Assembly: GCA_903813345.2 (NCBI GenBank)
Contig: CAIIXF020000001.1
Coordinates: forward strand, 11,036,001 to 11,100,000
Reading direction: 5' to 3'
Length of the DNA: 64,000 nt
From: Owenia fusiformis
Lineage: Eukaryota
In this document: in pieces, positions 7,163 to 46,300 of the stretch
How the letters are laid out: every line of letters begins with the position of its first letter
Numbering within the stretch: the first letter of the stretch is position 1
The notes under the pieces: generated by a model
Database searches by the model: none
Seen by the model: only the letters and a program-made list of their open reading frames with translations
Told to the model about the DNA's origin: nothing
Translations under genes and position numbers: made by a program

Positions 7163-7998
7163 AACATTGAGATTCTCCAATTTCTCAAATACCAAAACCC
7201 ATCGTCATTTCTTCTAGGAGGGAAGGTAGGAAGGGTACGCATCGAACGAAACTGGCTCTGCTGTTGGATATATTTTATCAGGTTATTTGAAAATGTTCCA
7301 TATGGGTGGAAATCGAATCGAGCAGCTTTGAATATATATTTTTTATTCTAACTCAATTTGTACTGTTTTAATGTCATTTTAATTTAAAGTTTCTACATTT
7401 TTAAATGAAAGTGCAGTCTCTAGTTTTTGGTTTGATCGAACTACACTTAGAAATATTTGCATACAGCCGATCAGCGCAGCGGAAATTACTACTTTATAGG
7501 GTGACGGTCACACTTAACTGATATTATAGTTTTACACATAACACAAATGACGTGATAAGTGCGTGATAACTACATGATAAGTACATCTACATTGATTTTG
7601 AAGGGATGACATGTTTTGTACATATGCGTTTGTCTGTTAGTCAGAGTACAACATGAACAATAAATATAAGATACCTACAGTGCATCAATCTTAAAAAAGC
7701 TATCAAAGGAACACAATTTAATATTTTATGGAAAAATACATTCATGTCTTGAATATAAAACGTTTGTAAATTTTTTAAAATAACATGTCAGAAAAGCATT
7801 AAAATACAAGAGACACAACAAGCAATTTTTCATATCATATTTTAATTGCTTATTTTTGAGGTTTGATTGACACACACAAGCCAATATTGATTTTCGACAC
7901 TTGTTGCTAGATTTAGCGATGGTTGAGATGTGACCACCGTCATTTGGTAAAGTGATACAACATGCAGTTGGACGAGTGCTTGGTGTGAAGTTTAAAAC

Positions 7999-8847
7999 AT
8001 GTCACGAAGACTATTCAAAAGTGAGCAAACAGATTTTGAGAAAATTAGCCACTGCACCTTACAACGCGGCAGTCCATCTTGCAACTCTCAAGACAACATA
8101 AAATCAAACTCCGATATTCTTCCGGATTTGCAAAAGCAAAACTTGAAGTTAACTAGCCTGGACATGGCAAAGGATATGGCGAACTCGGTGAACACATTTC
8201 ATAACATTTTTTCAACACCGTTGCCACCAATAAAGACCTTGCCTAAAATACAGGCCAAAAGACCAACATCGTTAATTGGATTGGATACTAGTAACTTGAC
8301 AATGTCCAAGAGGCCGGGAAGTCTTCCACAGATAACTCAAAAACCTTTGTGTAAAGGTCGTTTGAATTTCGGACCAGCGTGCTCTAAATACACGTTGACT
8401 AAAATAGAGCACTTTGAAAAGCAAAATTCTCAATCGGAAGTGACCGCTACAACTCCATCTGATGTTATTACAACAATCGTCGACCCTTTGGCTGTTTCGG
8501 GCAATGTATTGGAAAATGATGAAGATGACCCATCCGGTAGACTAGAAAAGGTACTCCGCAAAATAGGGAATGTTAAAATACGCAAGAGGGATCATGACGA
8601 AAGATTAGCTTGTGCCAAATGTTTAAACGATTTGGACACAATCTCTAAAGAAGTAGGATTTGAAAGAATGTTTCAACGTGCTATAGATTCGCCAGGAGAT
8701 ATGTCCCCTACTTGTTTATCGCCTATAATCACAAAAAACAATACAACAGTAGTGCCATGGCCAGCCCCGTGTCTCGTGGAAGTGGAAAGACTATCAAATT
8801 CCACCATTGAAAGTCCAAAAGACGACGCAAAGAAAAAACAACTATAA
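7999..8847 (+). CDS. Uncharacterised intronless 282-aa protein, Ser/Thr/Pro/Lys-rich and probably largely disordered
   Basis: 849-bp ATG-to-TAA ORF in AT-rich DNA, start context AAACATGT, no recognisable domain, not repeat-derived. Confidence 0.6.
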   Translation: MSRRLFKSEQTDFEKISHCTLQRGSPSCNSQDNIKSNSDILPDLQKQNLKLTSLDMAKDMANSVNTFHNIFSTPLPPIKTLPKIQAKRPTSLIGLDTSNLTMSKRPGSLPQITQKPLCKGRLNFGPACSKYTLTKIEHFEKQNSQSEVTATTPSDVITTIVDPLAVSGNVLENDEDDPSGRLEKVLRKIGNVKIRKRDHDERLACAKCLNDLDTISKEVGFERMFQRAIDSPGDMSPTCLSPIITKNNTTVVPWPAPCLVEVERLSNSTIESPKDDAKKKQL

Positions 8848-9691
8848 GGACACTCATATGAAGTGCATGCCAAATTATAATAACATATGATATGATATGA
8901 TTTGATATAATTGCACAAGATGTCAGTTCTCCTGCAGATTCTGATGCACTGGAAATAACAAATCTTTGGCAAATACCTTTTGGCATAGCATATCATAGCA
9001 CAACTTTCTCTGCTTCAACAAAATCCAATAAATACAATACAATAATTTAGATGTTTATTATAATTTATCTGAGAAGAGGATCTACCTTTTCTATTTAACG
9101 ATTTTAAGAGTTTCTCCTGGACTATGACAATAATATCTGAAAGTCGAAACAGCATTGGAATGTGATAAAGATGAAAACAACATGTCTGATGTTATTTTTC
9201 CATAGTGGAAACATGCTATTCATTGTTTTGAGCTTCCCAAAAGGTCACAGTACTAGATGTGTTATCATATATTTCTCACATGCGTGTATGATTCAAAACC
9301 ACATGTTATTTAATAACATGTGCCGTAGCTCTAGTTCGGTCCATACTATCCCCTCCCCCACCATGCAAGTTCCATTATCTCAATCCAGGACTATAACACC
9401 AGGGGACATTTTACTCATACAGAAGCCATTGCATAAATCTAAAATAACATTCGAACGTCTAAAATGTCAACGTTAATGGTTGTAGGTTTACATGATGATT
9501 GATTTGTTCGTAGATAGTAGCAGGTCAAAGCTCAAACTATACATATACCGAGAGTTTCAGTTTATTGCTTTACCAATGTCTGAGGTCTATTAAAAGGAGC
9601 AATACATGGAGATATAAAAATGAGATTTGAGCGAACCTTTTCGAAATGGACCAAGTCGCCATCTTGACAAACAGCCAATTTGTCGTTGATC

Positions 9692-10997
9692 ATGAAATGG
9701 ACAATCGTCTATTTGAACTATTTGTGGAGAATATTGAAGTCACCTGAATTCTTGTTACTGAATGTGTTTTTGAATGTCTCAATTTTAGTCTATGTGACAA
9801 TACGTAGCGTGACAATATATGGACTGAGTGGCCCTCAGCTCGAAATGAATGACCTGCGGCAAAGGCAATCTGCACGTCATCAGATGGATGCTAGTAAAAT
9901 GACTCATGCAAAGGACGATAAGACGCCATACATCGATATGGATAAATTAATTGATTCAAGATCACTCAACAAGACAACAGATGCATTTATTGTTGGAGTA
10001 AAAGAATGCATTCCGAATGGATTCATGTCGATCCTCTCTCACCATCCACAATTGGTACTCGCCAATGGTCCCACATCATTCTTCAGACATGATAGTTATT
10101 ATTGGCTTGGAAAACAATACTACACCTCTATAATTCCTGACAAAAGAAATGGAACCATAACGCTTGATTCCTGCGTCGAATGTTTCGATAACCCTTTCGC
10201 TCCGAAAAGATTATTTGAAATGAACAGAGATCTGAAAGTGATAGTTATGCTCCGTAACCCAGTCGAAAGACTTCTTTTGGAGTACTCGAAATTAATTCAA
10301 ACTGAACAACGTCATATAAACCTAACATTGGACGGGTGGCTTTTTGGTAAGTGCAGTGTGATAGTAGAACTGGATGTGTGTAATCCGTGCACTTATATTA
10401 AAGGAATCTTGGGGCCCTAATATTGATGATTGCTTACCATAGTTAAAACTGGCTAGGATATATATCTCCAATCATTTCCTTTTTATCATTTGATGTTTTG
10501 TGAAATATTGCCTAATCATTTTCTTCCTCATTAGATTCTGATATAAAGACAATATCAATTCAAAGGGCCCGAAATATTGATGTCATATATTTACAGATCC
10601 TGACACGGGAGAGGTGCATACTAACAGGGATAGTATAAAACGCAGTGCATATATGGAGTTCTTGCCTAAATGGAGTGCAGCCTTTGGAAGGGACAACATC
10701 CATTTAATCAGTGTGAATGCATTTCTCAAAAATCCATGGATGGAGCTAGGCAATCTAGAGCGATTTCTTCACATCGATACCTTCTTTGAGCAGCAAAAAC
10801 ACGACCCTATAGTACGCACAAAAGGGTTTACTGCATTTTGCCATGTACCTGGTGTATGTGTCATGGACAGTACTGCTTATCTTCAATATGCCACGCATAA
10901 TACTACTAACTTGTTGAATGACTATTACAAGGACGACAATCGTAGATTGAATCAATATTTTAATATATGTTTTGATGAGGATAAATGTAAGATTTAA
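9692..10997 (+). CDS. Heparan sulfate glucosamine 3-O-sulfotransferase-like type II membrane protein (~351 aa) with degenerate active site
   Basis: Exons 9692-10346 (donor G|GTAAGT) and 10597-10997 (acceptor TTTACAG), in frame. N-terminal TM segment; motifs FIVGVK, HPQL, YWLGKQYY, LKVIVMLRNPVER, LERFL, KGF..C....C match HS3ST/NDST-type sulfotransferase domains. Confidence 0.8.
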
Positions 10998-14867: not shown

Positions 14868-15215
14868 TATATACATAATTAGCATCTTATTACACATCTT
14901 AGTTATCTTATGACGTGTCTCTTTACATCTCCCGGTCTAGAAAAGTCTAGAAGTAAAAATTGATTTTCAGGTGACTATTGGTTGTTATTTGCTCATTAGA
15001 ATTCATCTTAACGTCTCTGAAGTTATACATATGAATGGTATCGTAAGTTGTGGATTTGATATTATTTTACTGAAATCTAAGCCAATCGAAAAAAAGTATA
15101 GCTAGTTAAACACAATCGTGATTGGCCACTTCGGTTCATTAGTAATTACAGTACCTACTATTAGTTATGACATAAATAACTATATCAAATAGAAATTGAC
15201 AATAATATATTAAGA

Positions 15216-16166
15216 ATGGCTGCCAACATCCAAGAAGAGAGTATCAATGCAACAACAATCGGACCGGAGCCTATAATACCAACGTATGACTTAATAGCGC
15301 GTGCAGCGTTTGAATCCATAGTTGCACTTCTTATAATTGGAGGAAATAGTATCGTACTGGCCACTCTATTGGCATTTAGGAACTTGCGCACAATTAACAA
15401 TATTTTTCTTATGAGTTTAGCTTTAGCGGATCTCTTGATGGGTGGCATTGTATGCCCCCTAACTATCCACAGACGGTACTTGGTACCACTTTTGTATGGT
15501 GAACACACGCAGGATAGGTGGCTATGCGCATTGGGGCTGTATTTAAAGAGTGTTTCCCTTGGCGCATCTTTGTTTAGTATGGCCGGAATTGCTTTAGATC
15601 GATATATCGCAATCATGCATCCTTTGCGTTACAGAACTTTGGTAACCCGTCGAAGGGTTCGGGCATACATCATATGTGTATGGATATACATGCTATCTTT
15701 GTGTATGTTGTACTTCTTTAATAGATCTGGGTTTGAGGACACTTGCCGTATAAAACAAGTTACTTCAAAAGGTATGTTCGCCATAATTAAAGTCCATATC
15801 TTTATCGTGATGCTTTTGACTGTCATTTCACATACGGTAGTATCAATCCTTGCTCACAAGCATAGGACAAGGATCAATGCAGAGTTGGCGAGCTTCAGTA
15901 ATAACATGGCCGTGGCGCACCGTAATGAAAACAAAATTGCCAAAACAATGGCATTAATGGTTGGTGTTTTCTTACTGTGTTGGCTACCCTGGACAATAAC
16001 CTCGTTTATTCGATTGAAGGAAGAACCTGTTTGGTACAAATCATTCTGTTATTACACGACTACATTGGTAGTGTCGAATAGCGCAATGAATCCCTGGATT
16101 TATGCCACAAGACTTAAAGAATTTCGTAAGGCGATGGGGAAAGTTTTAAGGTGCAAATATAGATAG
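15216..16166 (+). CDS. Intronless rhodopsin-family (class A) GPCR, 316 aa, adenosine/aminergic-like orphan
   Basis: Seven hydrophobic segments; GNxxV, LALADL, C3.25, DRY, CWLP, NPWIY, and helix 8 (KEFRKAM). Confidence 0.93.
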   Translation: MAANIQEESINATTIGPEPIIPTYDLIARAAFESIVALLIIGGNSIVLATLLAFRNLRTINNIFLMSLALADLLMGGIVCPLTIHRRYLVPLLYGEHTQDRWLCALGLYLKSVSLGASLFSMAGIALDRYIAIMHPLRYRTLVTRRRVRAYIICVWIYMLSLCMLYFFNRSGFEDTCRIKQVTSKGMFAIIKVHIFIVMLLTVISHTVVSILAHKHRTRINAELASFSNNMAVAHRNENKIAKTMALMVGVFLLCWLPWTITSFIRLKEEPVWYKSFCYYTTTLVVSNSAMNPWIYATRLKEFRKAMGKVLRCKYR

Positions 16167-17495: not shown

Positions 17496-17500
17496 GTCAT

Positions 17501-17970
17501 CGATTCTGTTAGTCTAAACAAACATTAACATTGAATGTATATAGCTCGTCGTCGATTCTGTTAGTACAAATGAACATTGACATTGAATGTATATAGCCCG
17601 TCATCTATTCTGTTAGTACAAATGAACATTGACATTGAATGTATATAGCCCGTCATCTATTCTGTTAGTACAAATGAACATTGACATTGAATGTATATAG
17701 CCCGTCATCTATTCTGTTAGTACAAATGAACATTGACATTGAATGTATATAGCCCGTCATCTATTCTGTAAGTACAGAATAGATGATGGGTGAACATACA
17801 AATGAACATTTACATTGAATGTATATAGCCCGTCATCTATTCTGTAAGTACAAATGAACATTGACATTGAATGTATATCGCCCGTCATCTATTCTGTAAG
17901 TTCAAATGAACATTGACATTGATGGTACATAGCCCGCCATTGATTATGTAAGTCCAAGTGAACATTCACA
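17501..17970. repeat. 52-bp minisatellite (~9 copies); first unit at 16170-16229 split off by the transposon
   Basis: Unit GCCCGTCATCTATTCTGTTAGTACAAATGAACATTGACATTGAATGTATATA. Confidence 0.9.
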
Positions 17971-20900
17971 TTTAGCTAATTGTACAGGGTGGTTCAAAAA
18001 TTCGCGTGATCACAGGGTACGTACCAAATTAAGCATGACAGTTGAACGCGCAGGGTACCGTGCAACACTTAATACAACACTTTTCAGCATGTGATACAGG
18101 AAATATTCCACAAAAGGTAACACTGTATCATCCACGAAAGCGGAAACCCCAACCATGCGATAAAACGTAAGCTTGTATTGTAATGCGCCTAACTAAGACG
18201 TAGATATGGTCCTGGCACTGGGGTAGGCGCGGTCCCGGGGCGTGGTAGGCCTACTCGATAACAAGTATTCGTCATCCTAAGGTGTACTACTTATTCCCAG
18301 TAGCTTAGCTACATGTACGCACAGGCGTACTCTCACATTTTTAAGAAAATGAAGTTTCCTAGATCATTACAATTGAGATGAAAAATAAATGTCACAAAAA
18401 CATAGAAATGTAAATTTAAAAGTCTCGTAAATCACAATGTTTGATTTCTTTTCGAGTAAGTTGCATTATAGTTGAATTCTACAACAGCAGAAAGATAAAG
18501 GATCCGTCACTATAAGTATATAAAAGTGTCCCCAGAGCTTTCATAACCATTATGACATGTAATATTGTATTTAGTAAGGAGTTAATTATGGCATAGTGTT
18601 CAGCAGGTACATCCTAAGTGTTATTGAGGTAACCGTGACCTTGTAAAGGTCAAGTCAGTGCATATCTGCAAATCAAACATTCTTGTGTGCAAAATAATCA
18701 TTTATGAAATCTAAAATGCGAATATGATTATGATAAAGAATGTTGTTAAGAACAATTTTGACCTTAGCCTTTGAACTTTCGAAAGTAGGTCAAACTTTCA
18801 AATTTCACAATTTTTGTTTTTATTTTTTTATTCGGGTCCATTGATTTAACTGTTTAACAGGGGGATATCATCATATATCAATATGATGATATCCTTGTGT
18901 TTAGCCAATTATTCAAAATTTCAAATAAGCTTGTGGTAATGCTCCTTCTAACCCTGGGGACACCCATATTTTGACATCTAGGCAGGTTACCAATTGCCCT
19001 TTAGTCATTATTCAATAGTATAGGTAAATTCATAATCCACAGCACTAGTATAGTCAACATCCAAAATCATGTGGTATATTTTTGGTTCAACTTCACTTTT
19101 ACAGCCAGTTGGTCGTGTTACTTTGTCCTTGCATATACTAGTATATGTATGCCCTGTGCTTACAGTGCTGTAATCACGAATGAAAATCATCTTACAAGCT
19201 GCATGTACATGTAGGTAGGTACAAAACTAACACTGAAAAGCAAAAATAATTTAAGTAATTTTGCATCTTGTCTTTCGATGCTATAGGGAGTCTAAGGATT
19301 AATATAAGTATATATAAGTGAATAATTTACCATGACTACTCAACACTCTGTTCTTTAAATATGAATACAAAATAGAACTGGAAATAATCTCCTGGTATAT
19401 ATCTCTAATTTGAATGTGCTCTCCTCAAATAACGAACGTAATCTGAGATCTATTACATAGAATTAATTAATGATCTAATTAAGGAAATGATTTTTGGACC
19501 ACTCTGTAGTTGATATCAAAAGCATTAGGCCTAACAATCATCGTTTTGATGTGACCATATTTACTTTGAATCGGATAAATAGCAATGATTGGTGAGTGCA
19601 GAGATCCCAGAGATAGACGTCTTTGGTGAATGTGTATGGCTGGCCAAGTGGTACATAGTTTCGTCGTTATGTTTACGACCGTAAGGTCGTAAATGTACGA
19701 CCGCAAGAACGTAAATATACGACCATAAGGTCGTTTATTTAAAAATCTAGTTTTCATGAATACTATTGTTTTTGCTTTTTAAAATAAAAATGATAGAACA
19801 AGACACACAGCAATGAATTGCTCTCAGGGTACATAGCACCAAGTAATTTACATACCAAGTCATATCCTTCAGAATTATATTAAAGCTTCATGTACATTAA
19901 AACTGACTGAATCCCACGAACGAAATTTATTTCGATGTCAAGACAACAAGGCATTGGTTTCCCAGGTTTCAAACTCAATATTTTCCGCCAAAAAGTCCAA
20001 ACAATTTGTCTAAACTGCAAGGAGAGGGGCTAATATTCTAGCAATATTGACATCAACATTGAAAATGTTGTTATCTGACATTATAACTGCCTATAAATTC
20101 AGAAACTCACCGTTGTTAGGCTATTCCGGTGTGCCGACATTGTCGGGCAAAAGTTTTGTCGGTCTTTAAGAATAATACGTAATTATGGTTTGATTTTTCA
20201 GTTGTTACAAAATGGGTAAAAAACGTTGCCTACGATTGACATGTATTCAAAATCAAATTATATAAATAATTTAAAGCTACATATATGGTCGGTCGGTATT
20301 TTCGGCAAACCATTATGATAATTGAATAATTTAATTAAATGACTGTAGCCTAGGTCATCGTGTTTGAATTCCCGGATCTAATTTCAGATGTGCAATGCGT
20401 TTTCATTACAATCCATTACTTACTTCGGTCCAAAGCCTTCTCTATATTCGACTCGAGTAATCCATTACCAATCTACCTGTATATTGATTTCCAGTTAAAA
20501 TTTTGACCCCCATACCGGCATGCCCCCGTCTAGATCCGGTTTTGAGTGAATCAGAAAAAACAAACACATCCAAATAGCAATCACAAGGGTCTGAAGTAGC
20601 CTACCATCGGATTTCATTCAATCAGGGCAGAGATTGATGTGCGTCAAGATTGACAGTGTTATTGACTACTTTAGCATACATTGTGTATTTTCTCATTTTT
20701 ATCCTTGAATAATAGCTATTACATATATTGTATAAAATGTATTAGATATTTGTGTTTGTTATCACTGCAAATTGGTATGTCATCCCTTTTTATGCCCATA
20801 AAATGTAAGTATACATTTTCCAGCAAACAAGTTGTTTTTTTGAGTTTGTGTTTGTTTTCCTTGTTCCCTTGCATGATTTGGATTATGCCAGGATGCAAAA

Positions 20901-21038
20901 CAAAAGATCTACTTCTTATGGCCTAACCCCGATATCATGCGGACCATGACTTTCAAGTGCCGCGGGCCTTGGATTTTCTAAAACGAATAATGACGTTTAG
21001 TTGCTCTCTGTCTCGCGTAAGCGAAAATGAAACTCAAA

Positions 21039-21048
21039 TCTCGCGAGA
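21039..21048. promoter_or_regulatory. TCTCGCGAGA palindrome (CGCG/BANP-type promoter element)
   Basis: Exact 10-bp palindrome ~80 bp upstream of the ATG at 21130; half-site TCTCGCG at 21011. Confidence 0.5.
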
Positions 21049-21129
21049 TGTCATCAATGAAAATGGAAATGTCAAATGAGTCAAATAGTTTCTTTAATTG
21101 CAGTTTAGGAGTGATTTTAAAGTTATAAA

Positions 21130-24100
21130 ATGGAAACTACACCGACAAAGGAAGTAGTAGCTCGGGTAGAAGTGCATGCGCCTGACAAAGGACCAGTATC
21201 TTCATCAAAAAGTAGCAAAAGTTCACAGAAACCGTCTGAAAATTTTGACAACAGTGATGTCCAAGATCCACTTCCTAGTTATCCAAGTATCAACAACTCT
21301 GAAACTGAGGGTCAGTTTCTCAATACAGTTCCACCATCACCTACGAGATTGACGAGAGACTTTAGAACGAGGTCTGCATACAGTGCTTGATAATTCACTG
21401 AGGTTTCAATATTACTCAAGCATAATAAAAACTTGGGGGGTGGGGCTTTTCAACTGTGATAAATGTCACACTACTTCAAAGCAAAGCAACCAGTTGAACC
21501 TAAAAATAAGAAATCTAACAATTATTGTGCAATAATATATGGAAAACATATTCGTACTGCACAGAAATGACATTTGTTAGTCTAGCTACAATCAGAGTCA
21601 GGGTTTATGACTGAGGTTGACACCGTCCTATTTAATGTATTGGCATTTAATCAAATTGCCTATATCATCATTGAAGCATGATGATATTCTGCGTTTGTCA
21701 CTTATTAACAACAATAATATTGTTTCAGGCAGATACAGCAGCGAGGCTCACGAGGGAGACTTGATCGTGACTCCATCTCCAACAATTACTATGGAGATTC
21801 TGTTGAAGTGGGCCACAGGCCCCCAATGTTCCAGCAGGATTACATCAGCCCTGAAAAACAAATGCACACAATCCGACAGTCGCGTCGCATTCCTCGTTGG
21901 ATATGGATTCCTTTGGCTAAGTCACTGGGCATTAAACTGCAAGAATTGGACAAGCCATGGCTGGGATTAATCATGTTTGTTCTAACATTAACATTTGGTT
22001 TTGGATATGGGATCACACTCATTTGGTATACCTTTTATGATATTAAGAGCGAGTATACAAAATCGACAGTTTTGACTGGCACTGTGTCCATCATCATTGG
22101 AATGATATGGTGTTCATTGGGGATCTATGCTAACCACTTGTCTTACGTCTTGTTCAGCAATTCAAAGTTTCTAGACAGTGTTAGAATGCACAGTAAAACG
22201 ATATTCAAGTTGAGCTCCGCTATGCTGATGATGATTTTAAGCACAACTTTCATCATAATGAACAATGCAAAAAATGTGAACATTCTGGATGAAAGCTTCT
22301 GTGGGAAAGTCAGCCTGAACCCTATTGTTTGCTACTTCTTGTACGGGTTCAGAGTTGGTTTTTCAATATTTGCACTACTTTGGAACATTATGGTAGCAAC
22401 AGTGTTACTCAGCGTATGTCGTACCCATACAATAGGTAATAACTCCACTCATCAAATTGTTGTTAACTACACATTAATGTTTGCTTGTTAAAGGGAGTTG
22501 TTAGCTGGTCATTAGCACTTTGTTTTTTAGAATACAAATTAGTTTGTTTTGACAGTACAAAGAAATGTAGATATTAATTATTATTATGGATCATCTTTCC
22601 TCAAAATATTAGAAGAATTAAAGGAAGAACTGCAGAAGGGATAGTGAGTCACTGTTAAATGTTGGAATGAGCTTGATCAAAACGCATGCCAATGTTTTCC
22701 TTCCCTTATAACTCAAATTTTATTTTCTTTAAAAATGCTTAAGATATCTGATTGAGTGCTGTTTGATAATCAATTTCTATCACCCTTTAGCCTCCGTACT
22801 TAATTTGATATTATATGATATCTGTGCTATTTAACACAGACTGTATTGTACAATATTAATAACATTTTTAGGAATTCGGCGATTTATCAAAGAGCTAGAG
22901 GAGGATGGAAAACTTATTGAGACTCTCCGCAAACAACGTTCAATGAACTACATGGACCAGGGAGACAGCACTGATGATGGTATGGAAGGTTATATCTCCT
23001 GCAGAAGTGATGACATATATGTCTTCGATATGTCTTCAGCTTTTTTGTGGGTGTTATTTTGTGGTTGGTGTTTGGCATTCAGCGTCTGTAATGTTGGTGA
23101 CATTTTGCATGTTAATGCCTTGTTAATATTTTCCACAATACAAAGTATACTGTATAGTATGTGTTGGCTAACAAAAACTAATCAGAAATATGAGGTGTCG
23201 TTGTGAAATTTTTGGGATAATTTGGATTCCAAATTTTATTGCATTTTGCATCTTATATAAAAGTAAAAAGGCATTTCTATTGTAAAAGAGGTAATCATGA
23301 GAAAGGATCAGGACAACTTTTTTGATCTGATAATGTATGCATGTAATGTGTTTTTAGAATGGTTGTGGGATGATGATCTACTGACCAGTGTACCCACCAG
23401 TGATTTTGCCACCAGTGGAAGGCATAACCCTATTGCCAGCTCTCTGCCAGCCACAGTGCCCTTGCAACGGCAGGTTTCTCAGACCAGTAATCCACATGCA
23501 CAGGTACATTATTTTTTCATGACTGTATTTCCAAACTGACTAATTAATCGTTGACAATAGTAAATAATTGTCAATGAACCCAAAAACAATGAATGTCTGT
23601 TTACAAATTGCAATTTTAATTTATGTTCATTACAATTGTATGTTTGTCATGTTTGTTTATAAAGGTAATGTTACATTTATTTTTATTTTGACTTCTTACT
23701 ATAGTAAAACCTATGTACATGTACAGTGAACATGGAACTACAAAAATGTGTTCACTATAGGCAGGTGTTCACTACAGAGAGGCAATTGTATACAGAAATC
23801 GGTGGATTATATGCTGAGAAGAGGTGTTCACTAGTCACATGTGTTCACTAGAGAGAGGTGTTCACTAAGACAGATTTTACTGTATATGTACATTCAAATA
23901 TTTTTTTATGTCTGCAGAGAGCTCACAGCTCAGGAGGTGTTACAATACAAGCTTCAAGTAGACCTGGGGCACAGTCTTTATCCTCAATGAACAACTTGTA
24001 CATTGACCCAAATTCACCTCAAGGTCAGAGGTCAAGGCTGAGTGAATCTTTGAGTAATGAGCCAAGGTCATCTCCTGGAGCTCAATCAACTCAAGTTGAA

Positions 24101-26881
24101 TTCAGTAGTCCAAATAGAGTAAGCATTTTCTTAAGAGTAAGCATGTTCTTTTATAATTGTTTATGTTCTTTGTGCCACCCAGCCTTCTATGTTGACTGTT
24201 GTTTTATGTATTGTGTTGTCTTTTGTTTGGTCTTTTAAATCCCTTCTTTCTATCATTGACAAAATAGTTTTGAATTTTATTGAAAAATGCATTGTATCTA
24301 TGAAAGGCTGAAATAAAATACATGTACATGACAATTCAATCTTCTATAAACTACTTGTGTAGATTGTGTGTATTGTATTTGCAGTATTGCATGTAAATAA
24401 AAATGAGAATAAATGTCCTCAGATGTTTCTTCATGTTTTTTTGTAGATTCCTAGTACTGCTACTGCTGACTCTCAGTCCATTGACACAGAATCAAGCCCT
24501 GGACCACAGATCCTGAATAATGAAGACATTCTGATTAGATACTGGAAAATAAATGTAAGAGCTTTTCGTATATTTAAAATCTGCAGACATGTATATATAT
24601 ATATATATACATATATGAGCCAGGCCACAGGAAAATGGGTCTTAGCACGGATTTTTTCAATGTTTTGAAATACCTTAGATGTATTGCAGGTGATCCACTT
24701 ACAAAGGTTTTACTGTTACAGAATAAAGGTAAACAATGAAGAAAGTAATGCTTATCTATTAATCTTGTTTCGTCATTATTTTCATTTTTACAATTCCAGA
24801 GTAGGTTGCGGGCCACATCATTAAGTCTTCAAAGATGGTTATCCAGCTGGGTAATGTTCATTATGATCTGGTCCATTAATTACATTATATTCTGGATCAG
24901 CCATGAGGCCACACTACTAGGCATCATTGAGTTTATCATTCCACTATTTCTCTTGCCATTAATTGCTTCAGCATTTGCTGAGGTCAACATGGAAGGGTCA
25001 AGAATGCTTAGGGTAAGTGAAAATTGTTAATTACATATATACTTAAATAATATACAATCATATGTATGTTTCTGCATTTAAACAAGAGTATGAGGAGATT
25101 GACAATAAATCTTACTTGTGTTCGGTAATGCATGGGAGTTCAAACTATATTTTATGCCATTGAACAAAGTGTTGAGAAGTAAAGTTAGGAATCGTGTGCA
25201 TCGGCTTCAATTAAGATTTAAATGTTCTCATACATGTATATTTGTATACACAACATCTCTTATAAAATTTGAAAGCAATTTACATTTCTTGGAAAACCAC
25301 CCTCCAAATGCAAGTCTCCACTCTCCAGGCACCATCCACTTAATTCCCAGAAGATGATGTCTTAAAACCTGCACTATACATAGATGTTATAAAAAATAAA
25401 CTTGATCGAAGAGAATGGAAAAAACAGAAATGTGAATATGACCCCAAGAAAATCTTTGTGACGATTCAAATGCTCTGACACTTCCTTTACCTGTTATTGC
25501 AGTGTATTTGTCCAACAGATGAGAGGATGGACTTGCTCTTTTATCTACTACAGCAACCTCTTGCAATAACTGTGAGTATGATCCTATGAACATTGGCCAG
25601 CTTTTGCCACAGGGGGATCACTTTTCAAAAATGTTAAGGTGACAATTGTGGCCCAAAATCACTTGATTGTATGATTTTGAAAGAATTTTTGGCCAAGGGG
25701 CAAGGGTTGTTTGAGCCCCTGGCCCTGGACCTGACCCCCCCCCCTCCCCTCTGACTATGGGCCTGAGTCCTGGATACACTCCTGGGATTGTTTTTAGAAT
25801 GTTAATGGTTTTTATCATACATAAATAGGTATCATATTGTCATCAGCCTTGTAGGCTTTCGGATATCAATTTTCTTGTCTGCTCATTTACAGACAAATCG
25901 CTTGACAAATTGATTTGAAAAAAAAGGGTACAATATTGTTCACTCTGTGTCTTGTTTTGGATTGTACGCAGGACAGGACCAAATCTATACACAGCTAGAC
26001 AATAAAGTATTATGGATTTTGGTGGTACTTCTGTATTAGCCCTTCTCGAAGGAATCTTGGGTTACTGAAAATTTAAGTCACAATTTACTTTTGATTAGCT
26101 CTATTAGCTAGTATCATAGTATGACTCATATAAAATCAAAATAATAATAATATTGTGCTATTGTGTGTTGTAAAAATTGTAATTATAACATCTAGTCAAT
26201 AATTATTATTCCCCATGCCAAGACAATTTGCTCATAATTAGTGCAAAATTATGAAGAACATGTCCAACTTGAAGTATCATTAAAGGGGCAACAACAACAA
26301 TTTTCTACCTGTAAATTTTACAGTTCTGTTATTACATGTAATTAAAGTGGCAGCAAAATTACTATCATCTAGTTTATCAAATTTTCTTACTTTATTTACA
26401 TGAAAAAACATGTGAAGATGAATGCAGTACGTTGGTGTGAATTATCGCTTATTAAAAGATATGTGTGACCTTTAAAATCTAGTTCTCAATAAATTCATGG
26501 TTTTTCATACGAAAAGTCCTTCAAAAAACCTTTTAAATGAAAATGTTTCACAGATCACATTTTGATAACGTTGGGTAAAGTTGGGTATTATAGTTATAAT
26601 GCATTAACATATAGGGCAAAGTCATTTGAACTTTACATGGGGCCTTTAATGCATAGAATGCCGCGAGGAAAACATTGTGAGGCTCAAATTTACAACAGAG
26701 CTCTAATGCTTTATGGCCTCCTATACCAACATAAGATAATATTTGCATTAACATAAATGATTACATATTTTTCCAGATCTTTGGCTACCCTTTAACCTAC
26801 TCATCCATTGTTACTGTTATCAGTGCCTTAGTTCTTGCTTTTACCTCAAGACTGATTCTGGATGAGTTTGCCAAGATTTAG
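21130..26881 (+). CDS. 7-TM membrane protein, gustatory receptor-like (GRL)/7TMIC superfamily candidate, ~632 aa, 9 exons
   Basis: Exons 21130-21371, 21729-22435, 22872-22979, 23358-23503, 23918-24118, 24447-24554, 24800-25012, 25503-25571, 26777-26881; all GT-AG and in frame to TAG. Layout is 4 TM, a long polar loop, then 3 TM; C-terminus QQPLAITIFGYPLTYSSIVTVISALVLAF. Confidence 0.8.
23701..23884. mobile_element. pogo/Tigger-like MITE in an intron
   Basis: AGTAAAACC...GATTTTACTG|TA ends with repeated internal GTGTTCACTA motifs. Confidence 0.55.
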
Positions 26882-27073
26882 TCAAGTACTGTTTGGAGAA
26901 ACTCATCATATTAAGCCACACATTTACAATCTGTGTCCCTTTGGATGATGCAACATAGAGGAATGCCATGAACATCAAAATGGGAGAAACAAGTTTGCCT
27001 GCTAGGTGCTTGGGGAAATTGGAACTGTAGGCTGTACTATGGGAGTCCTTTGCTAGAAAATAGTAGACATATA

Positions 27074-28115
27074 CGAGGGGTGATCAGGAATTTCTGGACC
27101 GTTGGCTCTATTTTTGTCATTTTTATTCTTTCTTAGTGATTTTTTCACACGATATAACTCAAATATATAGGATCACACCATGAAGATTTCATTCTTCTGT
27201 GAAATCATTATCTTTTTATTCTTGTTACCATGGTAACTGATGAAGCGACAAGGTGAAGCTCAGAAAAATACCAAATTTGAAAAATCAACAGTAGTTTTAT
27301 ATGCCACTTTTTGACACTGTTTTCATTGCTGAATATGTTACAAACATACTGAAATAGGTTGTATTATATCATTAAGTATATCCATTAATGTTGTAACTGT
27401 CATTATTCTTCCATCAATTCTAATCGTCCAAAGTAGTTACCAGCATTTTGTAAGCATTTGTTATCCCTTTTCACCCATTCCTGAAAGACGTGATACAGAC
27501 CATCTTTGCCGACAAAATGTAATTGTTTCCACCGTTTGTGGCCGTGTACCACCACGTATTCCACAGACTTAGCTCGTTATGATTTCTATCTTTTCCCAAC
27601 AGTGAAGACCAAATTATGAGGTATCCACTTTGAGGACAGTAATGAGATCATTCAGGAATTCACACACCAATGTTACAAAGTAGGCAAAGACGGTCTGTAT
27701 CTTTCAGGACTGGGTGAAAATGTATAACAAATGCTTACAAAGTACTGGTAACTACTTTGAAGGATTAGAATTGATAGAAGAATAATGACAGTTCCTAATA
27801 GACGAACATTAATGAATATACTTAATGAAATAACACAACCTATTCAGTATGTCACATATTCAGCAATGAATACAGTGTCCAAACATCATATAAAATTACT
27901 GTTGTTTTTCATTTGGTATTTTTTCTGAGCTCCACCTTGTCGCGCCACCAGTTACCATGGTAACAAAAATAATAGGATAATGATGTCATAGAACGATGAA
28001 ATCTTCATGATGTGATTCTATATATTTGGTTTATATTATGTGAAAAGATCAGTAAGAAAGGATAAAAAATGGCCAAAATAGAGTTAACGGTCCAAAAATT
28101 CCTGATCACCCCTCG
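27074..28115 (+). mobile_element. Mariner-derived foldback element with a transposase C-terminal remnant
   Basis: TA|CGAGGGGTGATCAGGAATTT...AAATTCCTGATCACCCCTCG|TA with inverted arms of several hundred bp; ~27555-27650 translates YSTDLARYDFYLFPTVKTKL*GIHF (YSPDLAP.D motif). Confidence 0.85.
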
Positions 28116-43300: not shown

Positions 43301-46300
43301 CACTTATAGACGACAAGGGATCATTTACTTTAGTCTAACATGTATGACTTTTACTTTCTTGTGATTTTTATAGAAAGATTATAGTCATTTTCTGTGGTAG
43401 TGTTATTTTGAGGCCATGCTTCAAAAATAAAGGCAGAGATTATCGATTCAAGATATACGAGGTTACACTGTAATGTTGTTGTAACCTTGCCTGATTTCAT
43501 TGGTCAGAATCTCCCCTCATGATGTCTGTCATCTACCCCTTGTTTAACAAACTCTTGATACATGTCTCAAGTACACATGTAACCTGTACATGGGCTACAT
43601 GTAGTATAGGCTCTAGCGTATAGGTGCAAGAATTTTGATATCTAGAGAAGCATCACAAATGATATTTGTTCCAGGTGGGGGCAGTGGTATAGGGCGCCTT
43701 CTAGCACAGCGACTTGCGAAACTTGGTGCTACAATTGTGATATGGGACATCAACAAAGAAGGCAATGAGGAAACTGCAAGGCTTATTACAGAGAATGGAG
43801 GAAAGGCACATGCATATATTTGTGATATAAGGTACAAACAAGTTCATCATTCCAAGATGAGATGTGATCATAATTACTATGTTGGTATAGTCAGACCATC
43901 CATAACAAGTCAACATCAACAAATTATTTTTTCTGTGTTGTACTTGTATTTCCTCGTAAGACACACTGATGGTGATACCAGTCCTATATCGATTGATGAT
44001 ATATATTGATATAATCCTTGAGAACATTTTGTACAGGTTGAAACTTTATTCATGCTGGATAATTTTATCAAAGTTTTGAACAGTGTACCAGTATATACAT
44101 TTGAGGATAGATCTGTGGGGGACTAAGGTCAAAAATGTATATTTATTATTTTTTCCCCTCATTTTCAAAAGGAGAAAATGAACTTTGCAAGGATGAAGGT
44201 TTCAAATTTTTCATTTTCAGATCTGCCTCCTGTATAATAGAAACTATTCCGAGACAACATTTACAGGTATATGGCGGCGGTCTGAAAAAGGATTTTATTC
44301 CAGTAGTTTCACAAATATTTCCATTTCAGTAATAATTCAGAAATCTCAGTATGCAGTGAGACAGTGAAGAGAGAGGTGGGTTGTGTCAGTATGCTCATAA
44401 ACAATGCTGGCATCGTGAGTGGGAAGAAGTTCATAGACACAACTGAAAAGGACATTGTAAAGACATTTGAGGTGAACACATTTGCGCATGTTTGGGTAAG
44501 TGATTGCTGGCTGGTTCTATTTGCATGTTCATATTCTATAGTTCATGAAAACATAAAGAATGAAATCCTGTACAGCATTGAATCTAAAACGATTTGTTTA
44601 TATAAAGGTCATTCAATAGTATGCCATTTGAGTTTCAGATAGATTCAACCAACATTTTTTCATTAATCATTAAATCAAGTGTTTATTGGAAGTTTATGAT
44701 ATGGACGGTCGAGGGCTATTGGCAGCCTGATCCAAGCAAAATGAAGAATGGCAAGGGTGACATCTATTCTGTCAGCTTTTATTCAGCTATATAGAAACTA
44801 TACTTTTAAGACCTAAAATGTTTGTGTTTCAGGCAGCCAAGGCATTTCTGCCAGACATGATTAAGAACCAACATGGTCATATAGTGAACATTGTCAGCTC
44901 TGCAGGATATATTGGTATATATTTTATTTTTATGGATGATTGAAAATTAAATGAAAATTTTGAAAAAATGAAACGTTCATTGTAATCATACCGACTCATA
45001 AAATAAGCTATGATGGTAGCATATCTACATTTTGACAGAAAAACTGACTTATGCTGGCACCCATATAAACAGAACAGTACTAGAATTTATTTTATTTCGT
45101 TACAATTATATTTTTATGTCACCACCATGGCATCTTCAACTTTTTTATGGATGATGTTCAGCATCTGGTTGGTGTTTGGACTTCGGCATCATGTTAATAC
45201 CTTGTTATACTGATGTAGCAATATTAGTTTGCATATGTATAATGCATTTATTCAATTTATCTTATTCAGGGGCTTTGTAACGCACATTTGATCAAAATTT
45301 TCAATTGCCATCTTGATTTTCTTCTCTTGCACTCAGCCTTTAGAGTTAAATAATGATCTACATCTAGGCCATCAGCTTCACCCCAAAATTTAGCTTATCG
45401 GTACCAAGTTAGGGGAATAATGCTCATCATGATTTTTGGCAAGGTAAATACCTCCAGAGTAAGAAAATATGTGATAGCATTGCAGGAGTGGTAGCTTATG
45501 GGTGTTATCGCCCATTTTTCAAAGTGGCTGCTATTGCGCTTTTTACCAAAAAAAAAGAAATCATATCTTAGTATAATGAGAGGCAAAAACAGTGATTCTG
45601 AAGTCTATTTCTGGGTTTTAGGGGTCAAGGATTTCATTTATGTCAAAATCTAAGTCATCAAAAAATTGCTTTACATGGAAATCCAAGATGGCCACCAAAA
45701 TGGGTCTCAAAACAAATTTGTTACTATTGATATAAGCTAAAAAAGCTCAAAGAACGGTTAAAAAGTGACTTTGGAGACCATGAATAGGTTTTAGAGGCTG
45801 AGGATTTTATTTGAGTCTAAATTTAAGTAATAATAGAAATCCTCCATATGAAATGCCAAGATGGCCACCAAAATGAGTGCCAAAATGAATATGTAAACTA
45901 TTTATATAAACTCAAAGAACAGTTAAAAAGTGCTTTTGCAGACCATGATAGGGTTTTAGAGGTTAATACAGATTCCATCCATGGATAAATCTAAGTGATT
46001 ACAGAATACCTTTATATAGAAATTTGAAATGGCTGCCAAAATGGCCAAACATATGGCTGCTAAAATGAATTTATACGCACATAGAAAAGTTAGAAAAGTA
46101 ATGTACGTAATAGATATCTGAAACTAGGTTTCAGGGGAAAATAGTTTCAATTTAGCCTTACTTTAACAAAGTCATCTTGACCTTTCCTCATACTTAAATC
46201 CAAAATGATCACCAAAATGGCTGCCAAAATGAATATTAACATGTACATACATGTATATCTATAAGCATTAACAGAGGATGTTGGCAAGTGATTGTGGTAT

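What the first reader, a model, noticed from the sequence alone, without database searches (positions are those of the whole stretch)
21130..26881. Divergent gustatory-receptor-like (GRL/7TMIC) ion-channel candidate with a very long TM4-TM5 loop
Seen: a 9-exon ORF (~632 aa) with a long hydrophilic N-terminus, four TM segments, a ~200-aa Ser/Pro/Gln-rich loop, TM5 (WLSSWVMFIMIWSINYIIFWI), TM6 (LLGIIEFIIPLFLLPLIASAFAEV) and a C-terminal segment QQPLAITIFGYPLT-YSSIVTVISALVLAF; the last introns are all phase 0. Known: insect GR/OR, animal GRL and plant DUF3537 proteins share this 4+3 topology, a P..(T/S)..G.F-type motif before TM7, and conserved C-terminal phase-0 introns in GR/GRLs. Inference: this is a 7TMIC member. 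It lacks the TY...ILLQF ending, so it may belong to a poorly described branch.
Basis: partly seen in the sequence, partly recalled or inferred. Interest (0 to 1): 0.72.

Follow-up and report, generated by a model that had tools for sequence, protein, structure and literature searches.

The report
Unnamed insect-chemoreceptor-fold membrane protein family
This is a real, transcribed gene of the annelid Owenia fusiformis whose protein is predicted to fold like insect smell and taste receptor ion channels, and it belongs to a conserved, unnamed family found across bilaterian animals.

Summary
There is a 9-exon, 632-aa gene on the + strand at 21130-26881, and every intron is GT-AG. The last five introns are phase 0. 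The translation is identical to an "unnamed protein product" of Owenia fusiformis. Spliced RNA-seq reads support 5 of the 8 introns.

The family is nearly single-copy, and its tree follows animal taxonomy: spiralians, a priapulid, chelicerates, crustaceans, cockroach and cricket lineages, echinoderms and amphioxus. No fly, vertebrate or non-bilaterian member was seen. It therefore looks distinct from GR/GRL, GrlHz and PHTF, although GrlHz could not be compared directly.

Channel function is inferred, not shown.

The parts
21130..21371 (+). Exon 1 (aa 1-80 plus 2 nt of codon 81). Start codon at 21130. Hydrophilic N-terminus, not folded in the model.
   Evidence: pLDDT <50 for residues 1-128. 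Joint 21371|21729 seen in 8 spliced reads.
21729..22435 (+). Exon 2 (aa 81-316 plus 1 nt). Encodes the candidate re-entrant helix TM0 (aa 137-147, about 21895-21927), TM1 (158-187), TM2 (195-235), TM3 (242-267), the outer loop with two conserved Cys (C272, C282), and the membrane part of TM4 (from aa 279).
   Evidence: Joint 22435|22872 seen in 5 spliced reads.
22872..22979 (+). Exon 3 (aa 317-352). Cytoplasmic extension of TM4, containing part of the most conserved motif of the family, SVCRTHTIGIRRFIxELExD. The unfolded loop begins here.
   Evidence: Helix 279-346. Invariant or nearly invariant S309, C311, R312, T313, H314, T315, R319, F321. Joint 22979|23358 seen in 12 reads.
23358..23503 (+). 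Exon 4 (aa 353-401). Part of the disordered TM4-TM5 loop.
   Evidence: pLDDT <50 for 351-484. Splice borders from sequence only.
23918..24118 (+). Exon 5 (aa 402-468). Part of the disordered Ser/Pro/Gln-rich loop.
   Evidence: Joint 24118|24447 seen in 8 reads.
24447..24554 (+). Exon 6 (aa 469-504). End of the loop and start of the long TM5 helix (from aa 493).
24800..25012 (+). Exon 7 (aa 505-575). Cytoplasmic part and membrane part of TM5 (to aa 538), a 4-5 residue outer loop, and TM6 with its cytoplasmic extension (543-576, motif SAYAEVNxEGxR).
   Evidence: Helices 493-538 and 543-576. Invariant R516, W517, W536, P552, E565, N567, E569.
25503..25571 (+). Exon 8 (aa 576-598). CxCPTxER motif and the short cytoplasmic helix TM7a (aa 584-592, about 25527-25553).
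   Evidence: Joint 25571|26777 seen in 5 reads.
26777..26881 (+). Exon 9 (aa 599-632 plus stop at 26879-26881). Encodes TM7b (aa 606-631, about 26798-26875), the presumed pore helix. It carries the conserved [TSN]Y (605-606), AFxS[RK] (619-623), a hydrophobic residue at 626, and D627-E628 at the outer end.
   Evidence: Helix 606-631. Column counts. Range ends of the structural alignments.

Best explanation
The locus is a real, transcribed gene for a membrane protein with the seven-transmembrane ion channel (7TMIC) fold of insect odorant and gustatory receptors.

Predicted architecture: a cytoplasmic N-terminus; a short N-terminal helix where TM0 sits; seven helices, of which TM4, TM5 and TM6 run far into the cytoplasm (the 'anchor domain'); a split TM7 (cytoplasmic TM7a plus membrane TM7b); and an extracellular C-terminus.

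It belongs to a nearly single-copy family conserved across Bilateria. By sequence the family matches none of the named 7TMIC families (GR/OR/GRL, DUF3537, PHTF) and is most likely not GrlHz.

By analogy with solved relatives, the most likely mechanism is as follows. Four subunits assemble through the conserved cytoplasmic anchor domain. TM7b lines a central cation pore, closed at its outer end by the hydrophobic residue at position 626, with D627/E628 forming an acidic ring at the mouth. The variable, acidic, Ser/Pro-rich TM4-TM5 loop acts as a cytoplasmic regulatory or docking region.

Because the family is single-copy, slowly evolving and most conserved on its cytoplasmic face, its stimulus is more likely a conserved internal signal than diverse environmental chemicals.

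Shown here: the gene model, transcription, the predicted fold, the predicted topology, and the family's spread. Inferred: homology with GR/OR, tetramer formation, ion conduction, gating, and the role of the loop. My odds are about 0.9 for the fold and about 0.45 for a channel.
For: Gene model and RNA: and identity to P0002.

Independent look. The ESM Atlas's own model and language-model features list 7tm_7, 7tm_6 and DUF3537 clusters among the nearest.

Topology. Mean K+R over 37 members is 5.1 / 5.4 / 6.4 / 4.4 / 3.5 in the predicted inner segments, against 1.2 / 1.5 / 0.2 / 0.6 in the outer ones. Two conserved Cys sit in the outer TM3-TM4 loop.

Helix lengths. TM4 279-346, TM5 493-538, TM6 543-576, TM7a 584-592, TM7b 606-631.

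Conservation. It is highest in IL1 (0.64), the TM5 cytoplasmic extension (0.63) and TM6 (0.60), and lowest in the loop (0.23) and the outer TM3-TM4 loop (0.36). This is the pattern reported for 7TMICs (bioRxiv 10.1101/2023.08.30.555482, passages read).

Gate position. In both models the range ends against BmGr9, Orco, MhOr5 and DmGr43a place residue 626 (L in 21 of 35 filled rows, otherwise I/V/M/F) opposite the published gate residues F444, L473 and V468 (PMC10769236, passages read).

Family. 394 cluster representatives at E<=0.001. The tree of 45 named members follows taxonomy, with one lineage-specific duplication.
Against: There is no sequence-level link to any known 7TMIC family. Pfam 7tm_7, 7tm_6, DUF3537 and all others are absent even at E<=10 for 7 members. 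The PDB sequence profile gives only three chance-level rows, E 5.5-7.2, none a GR/OR. Foldseek E-values are weak (best 0.035 and 0.0027; none <=0.001).

The fold evidence rests on predicted models, so shared fold could be convergence.

The GR signature TYhhhhhQF is not present at the structurally equivalent positions: 618-626 reads [VL]-A-F-x-[ST]-[RK]-h-h-h. In particular the gating Gln is a hydrophobic residue here.

No experiment or model supports a tetramer or ion conduction for this family. A direct comparison with GrlHz was not possible.

RNA depth is low, and tissue and stage are unknown.
Confidence: 0.7

Rival explanations
1. It is simply an ortholog or paralog of GrlHz (Drosophila CG3831), the holozoan 7TMIC lineage already described by Benton and Himmel (2023), so nothing about the family is new.
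Against: GrlHz homologs were found by BLAST from the fly protein across Holozoa (PMC9998090). Here, a search from the insect member P0048 returned 63 hits, and the only insects were Anabrus, Periplaneta and Blattella. There was no fly or other holometabolan, and no cnidarian, placozoan or unicellular hit. None appears among the named hits either. The B. belcheri member here is A0A6P4YGK8, whereas the paper's B. belcheri GrlHz is A0A6P5ACQ6 (bioRxiv 10.1101/2023.08.30.555482, methods passage). No second B. belcheri RefSeq protein appeared. These searches use a word filter, so very distant relatives could be missed.
Confidence: 0.08
2. The protein has the 7TMIC-like fold but is not a channel. 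It might act as a scaffold, a receptor that signals through its long cytoplasmic loop, or a transporter. Alternatively, the fold arose by convergence.
For: There is no sequence homology to GR/OR. The GR gating motif QF is absent. The strongest conservation is on cytoplasmic surfaces, which would also suit a partner-binding role. Benton and Himmel themselves write that for PHTF and GrlHz a completely different activity cannot be excluded (PMC9998090, passage read).
Against: The whole set of channel-related architectural features is kept: split TM7, long TM4-6 anchor helices, and a hydrophobic residue at the gate position followed by an acidic pair. TM7b is as conserved as the other helices (0.51). 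Every solved protein with this fold is a tetrameric cation channel.
Confidence: 0.2
3. It is a G-protein-coupled receptor, as an automatic UniRef name for two Elysia members suggests ('G-protein coupled receptors family 1 profile domain-containing protein').
For: It has seven hydrophobic segments, and that automatic name appears on P0024 and P0027.
Confidence: 0.02

Closest known systems
Insect gustatory receptors, odorant receptors and Orco (solved: BmGr9 8vc1/8uvt, DmGr43a 8jm9, DmGr64a 8jme, MhOr5 7lic, Orco 6c70, AgOR28, AaOR10)
   Different: No detectable sequence similarity (7-12% identity in the structural alignments; no Pfam 7tm_6/7tm_7 hit). No TYhhhhhQF at the equivalent positions. 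Single-copy and slowly evolving rather than a large, fast-evolving gene family. A 130-aa disordered N-terminus. The loop is 47-218 aa in the family. Absent from the flies and moths in which GR/ORs were defined.
GrlHz (GrlHolozoa, Drosophila CG3831)
   Same: A conserved, low-copy 7TMIC-fold lineage, unrelated in sequence to GRs, present in amphioxus, with a comparable structural score to Orco (PMC9998090).
   Different: GrlHz is defined by a fly protein and reaches unicellular holozoans and Trichoplax. This family shows no fly or non-bilaterian member in my searches, and its B. belcheri member has a different accession. Not compared directly.
PHTF / Class-B eukaryotic 7TMICs
   Same: A 7TMIC core interrupted by one very long intracellular loop; conserved and low-copy; present in chordates.
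Plant/algal DUF3537 proteins
   Same: 7TMIC fold. A DUF3537 cluster is among the Atlas neighbours (feature score 0.93; structure TM 0.45/0.63). A green-alga member has an IL2 of about 200 residues (PMC7746228, passage read).
   Different: No PF12056 hit at E<=10. That family is plant and algal, not animal.

Membership tests
7TMIC superfamily (structural definition, features i-vi in Himmel et al. 2023 preprint) | (i) Seven TM helices with the characteristic packing of Orco/OR/GR | tested here: met
7TMIC superfamily (structural definition) | (ii) Intracellular N-terminus, extracellular C-terminus | tested here: met
   By prediction only: positive-inside counts over 37 members. No signal peptide was looked for, and there is no experimental topology.
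7TMIC superfamily (structural definition) | (iii) Extracellular loops shorter than intracellular loops | tested here: met
   Median lengths are 15 / 22 / 5 for the outer loops and 23 / about 190 / 42 for the inner ones.
7TMIC superfamily (structural definition) | (iv) Long TM4, TM5 and TM6 reaching into the cytoplasm (anchor domain) | tested here: met
   Helices 279-346, 493-538 and 543-576 in Owenia; 192-260, 346-391 and 396-429 in Priapulus.
7TMIC superfamily (structural definition) | (v) Split TM7: cytoplasmic TM7a plus membrane TM7b | tested here: met
   Helices 584-592 and 606-631; 434-445 and 459-484.
7TMIC superfamily (structural definition) | (vi) N-terminal re-entrant loop (TM0) | tested here: inconclusive
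   A short helix at 137-147 (50-60 in Priapulus) with conserved P136, W140 and G148 lies where TM0 is expected, and the alignments start at model residues 128-143. Whether it is re-entrant could not be checked without coordinates.
7TMIC superfamily | Homotetramer (or heterotetramer) with a central pore lined by TM7b | not testable with these tools
It needs a full-length multimer prediction or cryo-EM.
GR/GRL sequence family (Pfam 7tm_7 / Trehalose_recp) | Significant match to the family profile | tested here: not met
   No 7tm_7, Trehalose_recp or 7tm_6 hit at E<=10 for 7 family members or for the exon translations.
GR/GRL sequence family | TYhhhhhQF motif in TM7b | tested here: not met
   By the structural register (range ends) the motif positions are 618-626 = [VL]-A-F-x-[ST]-[RK]-h-h-h. 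Only the final hydrophobic residue fits. A conserved [TSN]Y exists 13 residues upstream (605-606). The register is inferred from range ends, not from residue-level alignments.
GR/GRL sequence family | Conserved phase-0 introns near the 3' end, the last one six codons before the TY of the motif (PMC2680840) | tested here: inconclusive
   The last five introns are phase 0. The last one lies exactly six codons before the family's own T605-Y606. By the structural register, however, that TY is not the GR TY, and the intron is then about 13 codons away from the GR position.
GrlHz | Sequence-detectable relationship to Drosophila CG3831 and its holozoan homologs | tested here: inconclusive
   Indirect only: there are no fly or non-bilaterian hits, and B. 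belcheri has a different accession. No GrlHz sequence was available for a direct comparison.
PHTF (Class-B 7TMIC) | Long intracellular loop 1 (TM2-TM3) and the PHTF sequence profile | tested here: not met
   IL1 is 23 residues in all 37 members, and the long loop is IL2. No PHTF Pfam hit at E<=10.
DUF3537 (PF12056) | Match to PF12056 | tested here: not met
   No hit at E<=10. It appears only as an Atlas neighbour by features and structure.
Rhodopsin-type GPCR | 7tm_1 profile, GPCR fold, extracellular N-terminus | tested here: not met

The most novel reading that the evidence does not exclude
This is a previously undescribed 7TMIC lineage that dates to the bilaterian ancestor and is kept as a nearly single-copy gene. 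It occurs in spiralians, priapulids, chelicerates, crustaceans, polyneopteran insects, echinoderms and cephalochordates, and was lost in vertebrates and holometabolous insects. That pattern would explain why structure screens of model-organism proteomes missed it. It would be a third 7TMIC lineage in chordates beside PHTF and GrlHz. It would most likely be a channel for a conserved internal signal, regulated through its long disordered TM4-TM5 loop, rather than a chemoreceptor for environmental chemicals.
Probability: 0.55. Interest if true: 0.65.

Novelty: new variant of a known kind. Interest (0 to 1): 0.55.

Why it matters
What is known of 7TMIC function comes almost entirely from insect odorant and gustatory receptors. 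The authors who defined the superfamily wrote that preliminary Foldseek screens showed no obvious new animal-specific 7TMICs (bioRxiv 10.1101/2023.08.30.555482, methods passage).

This family would add a slowly evolving, single-copy branch with clear one-to-one orthologs from annelids to amphioxus and sea stars. Such a branch offers strongly conserved residues to mutate and several tractable marine model animals in which to knock it out. It therefore gives a cleaner way to ask what the ancestral, non-chemosensory job of this channel fold was.

It would also refine the account of 7TMIC loss in the chordate lineage. The family is present in cephalochordates, and no vertebrate appeared among the hits I could name.

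The value is moderate. The superfamily and its fold are already known, and no function is shown here.

Tried and rejected
- Tetramer test. Complex prediction with four copies of residues 485-632 returned 'no answer' (score 0.02, mark 0.32; the alignment was not used). It counts neither for nor against assembly.
- Pfam on single exons and on 7 full-length members at E<=10. Only chance-level rows appeared (DUF6057 E 0.42, Cadherin 0.07, Orthopox_A36R 0.11, PGM_PMM_I 0.26, DUF3903 0.11, Vma12 3.3).
- PDB by sequence profile. Three rows at E 5.5-7.2, unrelated.
- Own-genome search. No genome is held for this window, so paralogs and other GRLs in Owenia could not be counted.
- The look-up of sequencing runs. 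No RNA holder was listed among the indexed runs. The evidence for transcription comes from laying raw RNA reads. Run X1 covers introns and exons evenly and behaves like DNA, so I did not use it.
- Literature searches for the family's accessions and locus names (0 papers) and for '7TMIC' from 2023 on (15 papers, none in the listing about a new animal lineage). The search for CG3831 gave nothing on its sequence.
- Earlier findings of this scan. Nothing on this genome or sequence. One unrelated Cryptosporidium note did not bear on this report.
- Considered and dropped: a Zn site formed by C311/H314 and C576/C578. C576 and C578 are Cys in only 20 and 23 of the filled rows, and I had no coordinates to measure distances.
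- Supplementary files and source data of PMC9998090 and the 2023 preprint could not be read. They hold the GrlHz and 'other animal GRL' sequence lists and could show that members of this family were already collected.


Full report
**1. The observation**

Reading the region and translating it in three frames shows nine open segments on the + strand that can be joined at canonical splice sites. With borders located and corrected, the exons are 21130-21371, 21729-22435, 22872-22979, 23358-23503, 23918-24118, 24447-24554, 24800-25012, 25503-25571 and 26777-26881.

All eight introns are GT..AG. The CDS is 1899 nt, giving 632 codons and a single terminal stop.

A hydropathy scan gives seven segments in a 4+3 arrangement, with 211 residues between the fourth and fifth. 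The unfolded part of that stretch (347-492) is 21% Ser, 10% Pro and 8% Gln.

The spliced translation is identical to a 632-aa database protein, 'unnamed protein product [Owenia fusiformis]' (P0002). The window is therefore from this annelid.

**2. Is the gene real?**

Raw reads of three RNA-seq runs with the same species label were laid on 20900-27100. They give spliced joints exactly at five of the eight predicted introns:
- 21371|21729: 8 reads
- 22435|22872: 5 reads
- 22979|23358: 12 reads
- 24118|24447: 8 reads
- 25571|26777: 5 reads

All have the first mate on the - strand, which in most stranded libraries means a + strand RNA. The other three joints are not among the rows listed (some rows were not shown). 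Depth over exons is low, about 1-4, with 6-12% of each run read.

Peaks of hundreds of reads at about 23095-23125, 23782-23885 and 25661-25867 come from short intronic repeats with loose ends. They say nothing about this gene.

**3. The family**

Exon 2 alone finds 29 longer proteins at E<=0.001. A profile of them finds 394 cluster representatives at E<=0.001, of which 112 are at E<=1e-30.

All named hits are 'uncharacterized' or 'hypothetical', apart from a few automatic labels that look misassigned (GPCR-profile names on two Elysia members, '60 kDa SS-A/Ro ribonucleoprotein' on a Plakobranchus member, 'Transmembrane protein' for Daphnia). None has a precomputed Pfam domain.

Organism names were obtained, and for 12 of 20 further representatives. 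They are:
- annelids (Owenia, Paralvinella, Lamellibrachia)
- nemerteans (Lineus, Tubulanus)
- a brachiopod (Lingula)
- a rotifer relative (Seison)
- many molluscs
- Priapulus
- chelicerates (Parasteatoda, Limulus, Amblyomma)
- crustaceans (decapods, Daphnia, an ostracod, a copepod)
- three polyneopteran insects (Anabrus, Periplaneta, Blattella)
- echinoderms (Anneissia, Patiria, Lytechinus)
- amphioxus (Branchiostoma lanceolatum, B. belcheri)

I saw no vertebrate, no fly or other holometabolan, and no cnidarian, placozoan, sponge or protist. That includes the search started from the insect member (63 hits). These searches use a word filter, and the representative search shows only its best 150 rows, so absence is suggestive rather than proven.

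I built a maximum-likelihood tree of 45 named, mostly full-length members. I chose these by name and left out unnamed rows and fragments. The tree follows taxonomy: deuterostomes, chelicerates, pancrustaceans with the insects inside, and molluscs with their classes. It shows one lineage-specific duplication, in Elysia. This is a nearly single-copy orthologous family as old as Bilateria.

**4. The fold**

Pfam gives nothing for the exon translations or for seven members at E<=10. A sequence profile against all PDB chains gives only three unrelated rows at E 5.5-7.2.

The AlphaFold2 model of the Owenia protein, made with the 29-sequence alignment, has a confident core. The ten-residue blocks are mostly 80-95 over residues 130-350 and 485-632. 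The N-terminus (1-128) and the loop (351-484) are unfolded.

- **Foldseek against the PDB:** it puts only insect GR, OR and Orco chains first (18 rows, TM by target 0.48-0.61, E 0.035-0.63). It then falls to TM 0.14. No E-value reaches 0.001.
- **ESM Atlas:** it uses its own model and language-model features, and lists 7tm_7, 7tm_6, DUF3537 and unnamed cnidarian and nematode clusters as nearest.

**5. Hallmarks of the 7TMIC fold**

The 2023 preprint lists six (10.1101/2023.08.30.555482, passage read).
- (i) Packing: met, as shown in section 4.
- (ii) N-in/C-out: met by prediction. Over 37 members the mean K+R is 5.1, 5.4, 6.4, 4.4 and 3.5 in the segments predicted inside, and 1.2, 1.5, 0.2 and 0.6 in those predicted outside. 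Two nearly invariant cysteines (C272, C282) lie in the outer TM3-TM4 loop.
- (iii) Short outer and long inner loops: met (medians 15/22/5 against 23/about 190/42).
- (iv) Long TM4-6: helices 279-346, 493-538 and 543-576.
- (v) Split TM7: helices 584-592 and 606-631, and likewise in Priapulus.
- (vi) TM0: a short conserved helix at 137-147 lies in the right place, but I could not check that it is re-entrant.

**6. Where the family is conserved**

Mean column identity is highest in IL1 (0.64, motif VRxHSKTxFK), the cytoplasmic start of TM5 (0.63, YWKIxxRLRxTSxxLQRW) and TM6 with its extension (0.60, SAYAEVNxEGxR). The cytoplasmic extension of TM4 carries SVCRTHTIGIRRFIxELExD. Identity is lowest in the loop (0.23) and the outer TM3-TM4 loop (0.36).

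The preprint reports the same pattern for 7TMICs: the anchor domain, TM7b and TM5-TM6 are the most conserved. The TM4-TM5 loop varies from 47 to 218 residues and is acidic (mean D+E 23.9 against K+R 11.0).

**7. The pore helix and the GR motif**

In both models, the last aligned residues against four different references imply one register:
- Owenia 626 and Priapulus 479 pair with BmGr9 444.
- 627/480 pair with MhOr5 469, and 627 with Orco 474.
- 630/483 pair with DmGr43a 426.

In that register L626 lies opposite the published outer hydrophobic gate residues F444 (BmGr9), L473 (Orco) and V468 (MhOr5) (PMC10769236, passages read). Position 626 is L in 21, I in 5, V in 4, M in 3 and F in 1 of 35 filled rows. 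The GR motif 436-TYLVILIQF-444 then corresponds to 618-626, which in the family reads [VL]-A-F-x-[ST]-[RK]-h-h-h, followed by D627-E628. So the TY and the gating Gln are not kept. This register is inferred from range ends, not from residue-level alignments.

Against it stands one coincidence that I cannot explain. The family has its own conserved [T/S/N]-Y at 605-606 (Y in 31 of 35 filled rows). The last phase-0 intron lies exactly six codons before it, which is the spacing described for the last GR intron relative to TYhhhhhQF (PMC2680840, passage read). T598 and I609 would then also match T429 and I440 of BmGr9. The two registers differ by 13 residues, and only a residue-level superposition can decide between them.

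**8. Which known lineage?**

- **GR/GRL by sequence:** not met (no Pfam hit, no motif).
- **PHTF:** its long loop is IL1, while here IL1 is fixed at 23 residues and the long loop is IL2. The structural score to Orco is also much higher than reported for PHTFs.
- **DUF3537:** no Pfam hit, and it is a plant family.
- **GrlHz:** this is the serious candidate, being conserved, low-copy and present in amphioxus. GrlHz is defined by a fly gene whose homologs were found by BLAST as far as Capsaspora. My searches from an insect member recover crustaceans, molluscs and amphioxus at 31-47% identity, but no fly and no non-bilaterian. The B. belcheri member here (A0A6P4YGK8) is also not the B. belcheri GrlHz used by the authors (A0A6P5ACQ6). 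I could not fetch a GrlHz sequence, and the papers' sequence lists are in files I could not open. The exclusion is therefore indirect, and I give the GrlHz reading about 8%.

Searches for the family's accessions and locus names found no paper. The listing for '7TMIC' since 2023 shows none on a new animal lineage.

**9. How it most likely works**

Shown: the gene model, transcription, a confidently predicted 7TMIC fold in two members, the predicted topology, and an old, single-copy family.

Inferred by analogy with every solved protein of this fold:
- Four subunits are held together by the conserved cytoplasmic anchor.
- TM7b lines a central cation path.
- A hydrophobic plug sits at 626, and an acidic pair lies just outside it.

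Inferred from evolution: the family is single-copy, follows the species tree and is conserved on its cytoplasmic face. It is therefore unlikely to be an expanding environmental chemoreceptor. It more likely responds to a conserved internal or physical signal, with the variable Ser/Pro-rich acidic loop as a regulatory or docking region.

The one attempt to test assembly gave no verdict.

**10. Verdict**

The family looks like an undescribed branch of a known superfamily. Interest is moderate (0.55): useful to specialists in chemoreceptor evolution, but without a demonstrated function.

Noticed in passing
window 26777 (last intron/exon border) and residues 598-613 of the protein: The last phase-0 intron lies exactly six codons before a conserved [T/S/N]-Y. 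This is the spacing reported for the last GR intron before TYhhhhhQF. Yet the structural register places the GR motif 13 residues further on. Unexplained.
   Followed up: partly
window 15180-16166 (+): An uninterrupted 328-aa open frame matches the rhodopsin-family GPCR profile (PF00001, E 2.1e-42). It is a separate, apparently intronless receptor gene about 5 kb upstream of the finding.
   Followed up: partly
window 57189-57887 (-): A 232-aa open segment matches lipid-droplet associated hydrolase (PF10230, E 4.3e-56). It is probably a large exon of an LDAH-like gene.
   Followed up: partly
window 43617-44009 and 44307-44642 (+): The first open segment matches short-chain dehydrogenase (adh_short, E 3.2e-10). 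Only the first segment was scanned. It is likely an exon of an SDR gene; the second segment lies close by on the same strand but was not tested.
   Followed up: partly
window 49939-52160 and 52257-53234: Two tandem arrays: a 47-bp unit x 46.6 copies, then an 82-bp unit x 11.9 copies. They coincide with the strong GC and AT skew at 50-54 kb.
   Followed up: partly
window 17496-17972: A 52-bp tandem repeat in two blocks (5.4 and 3.4 copies, 88-95% matches).
   Followed up: no
window ~23095-23125, ~23782-23885, ~25661-25867 (introns 3, 4 and 8): Short intronic stretches collect hundreds of partly matching RNA-seq reads with loose ends, and very high contig depth. They look like pieces of dispersed repeats that are transcribed elsewhere in the genome.
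   Followed up: no
window 7996-8847, 9668-10420, 10581-10997 (+): Three long open segments (283, 250 and 138 aa) upstream of the GPCR have no Pfam match at E<=0.001. They may be exons of an unassigned gene.
   Followed up: partly
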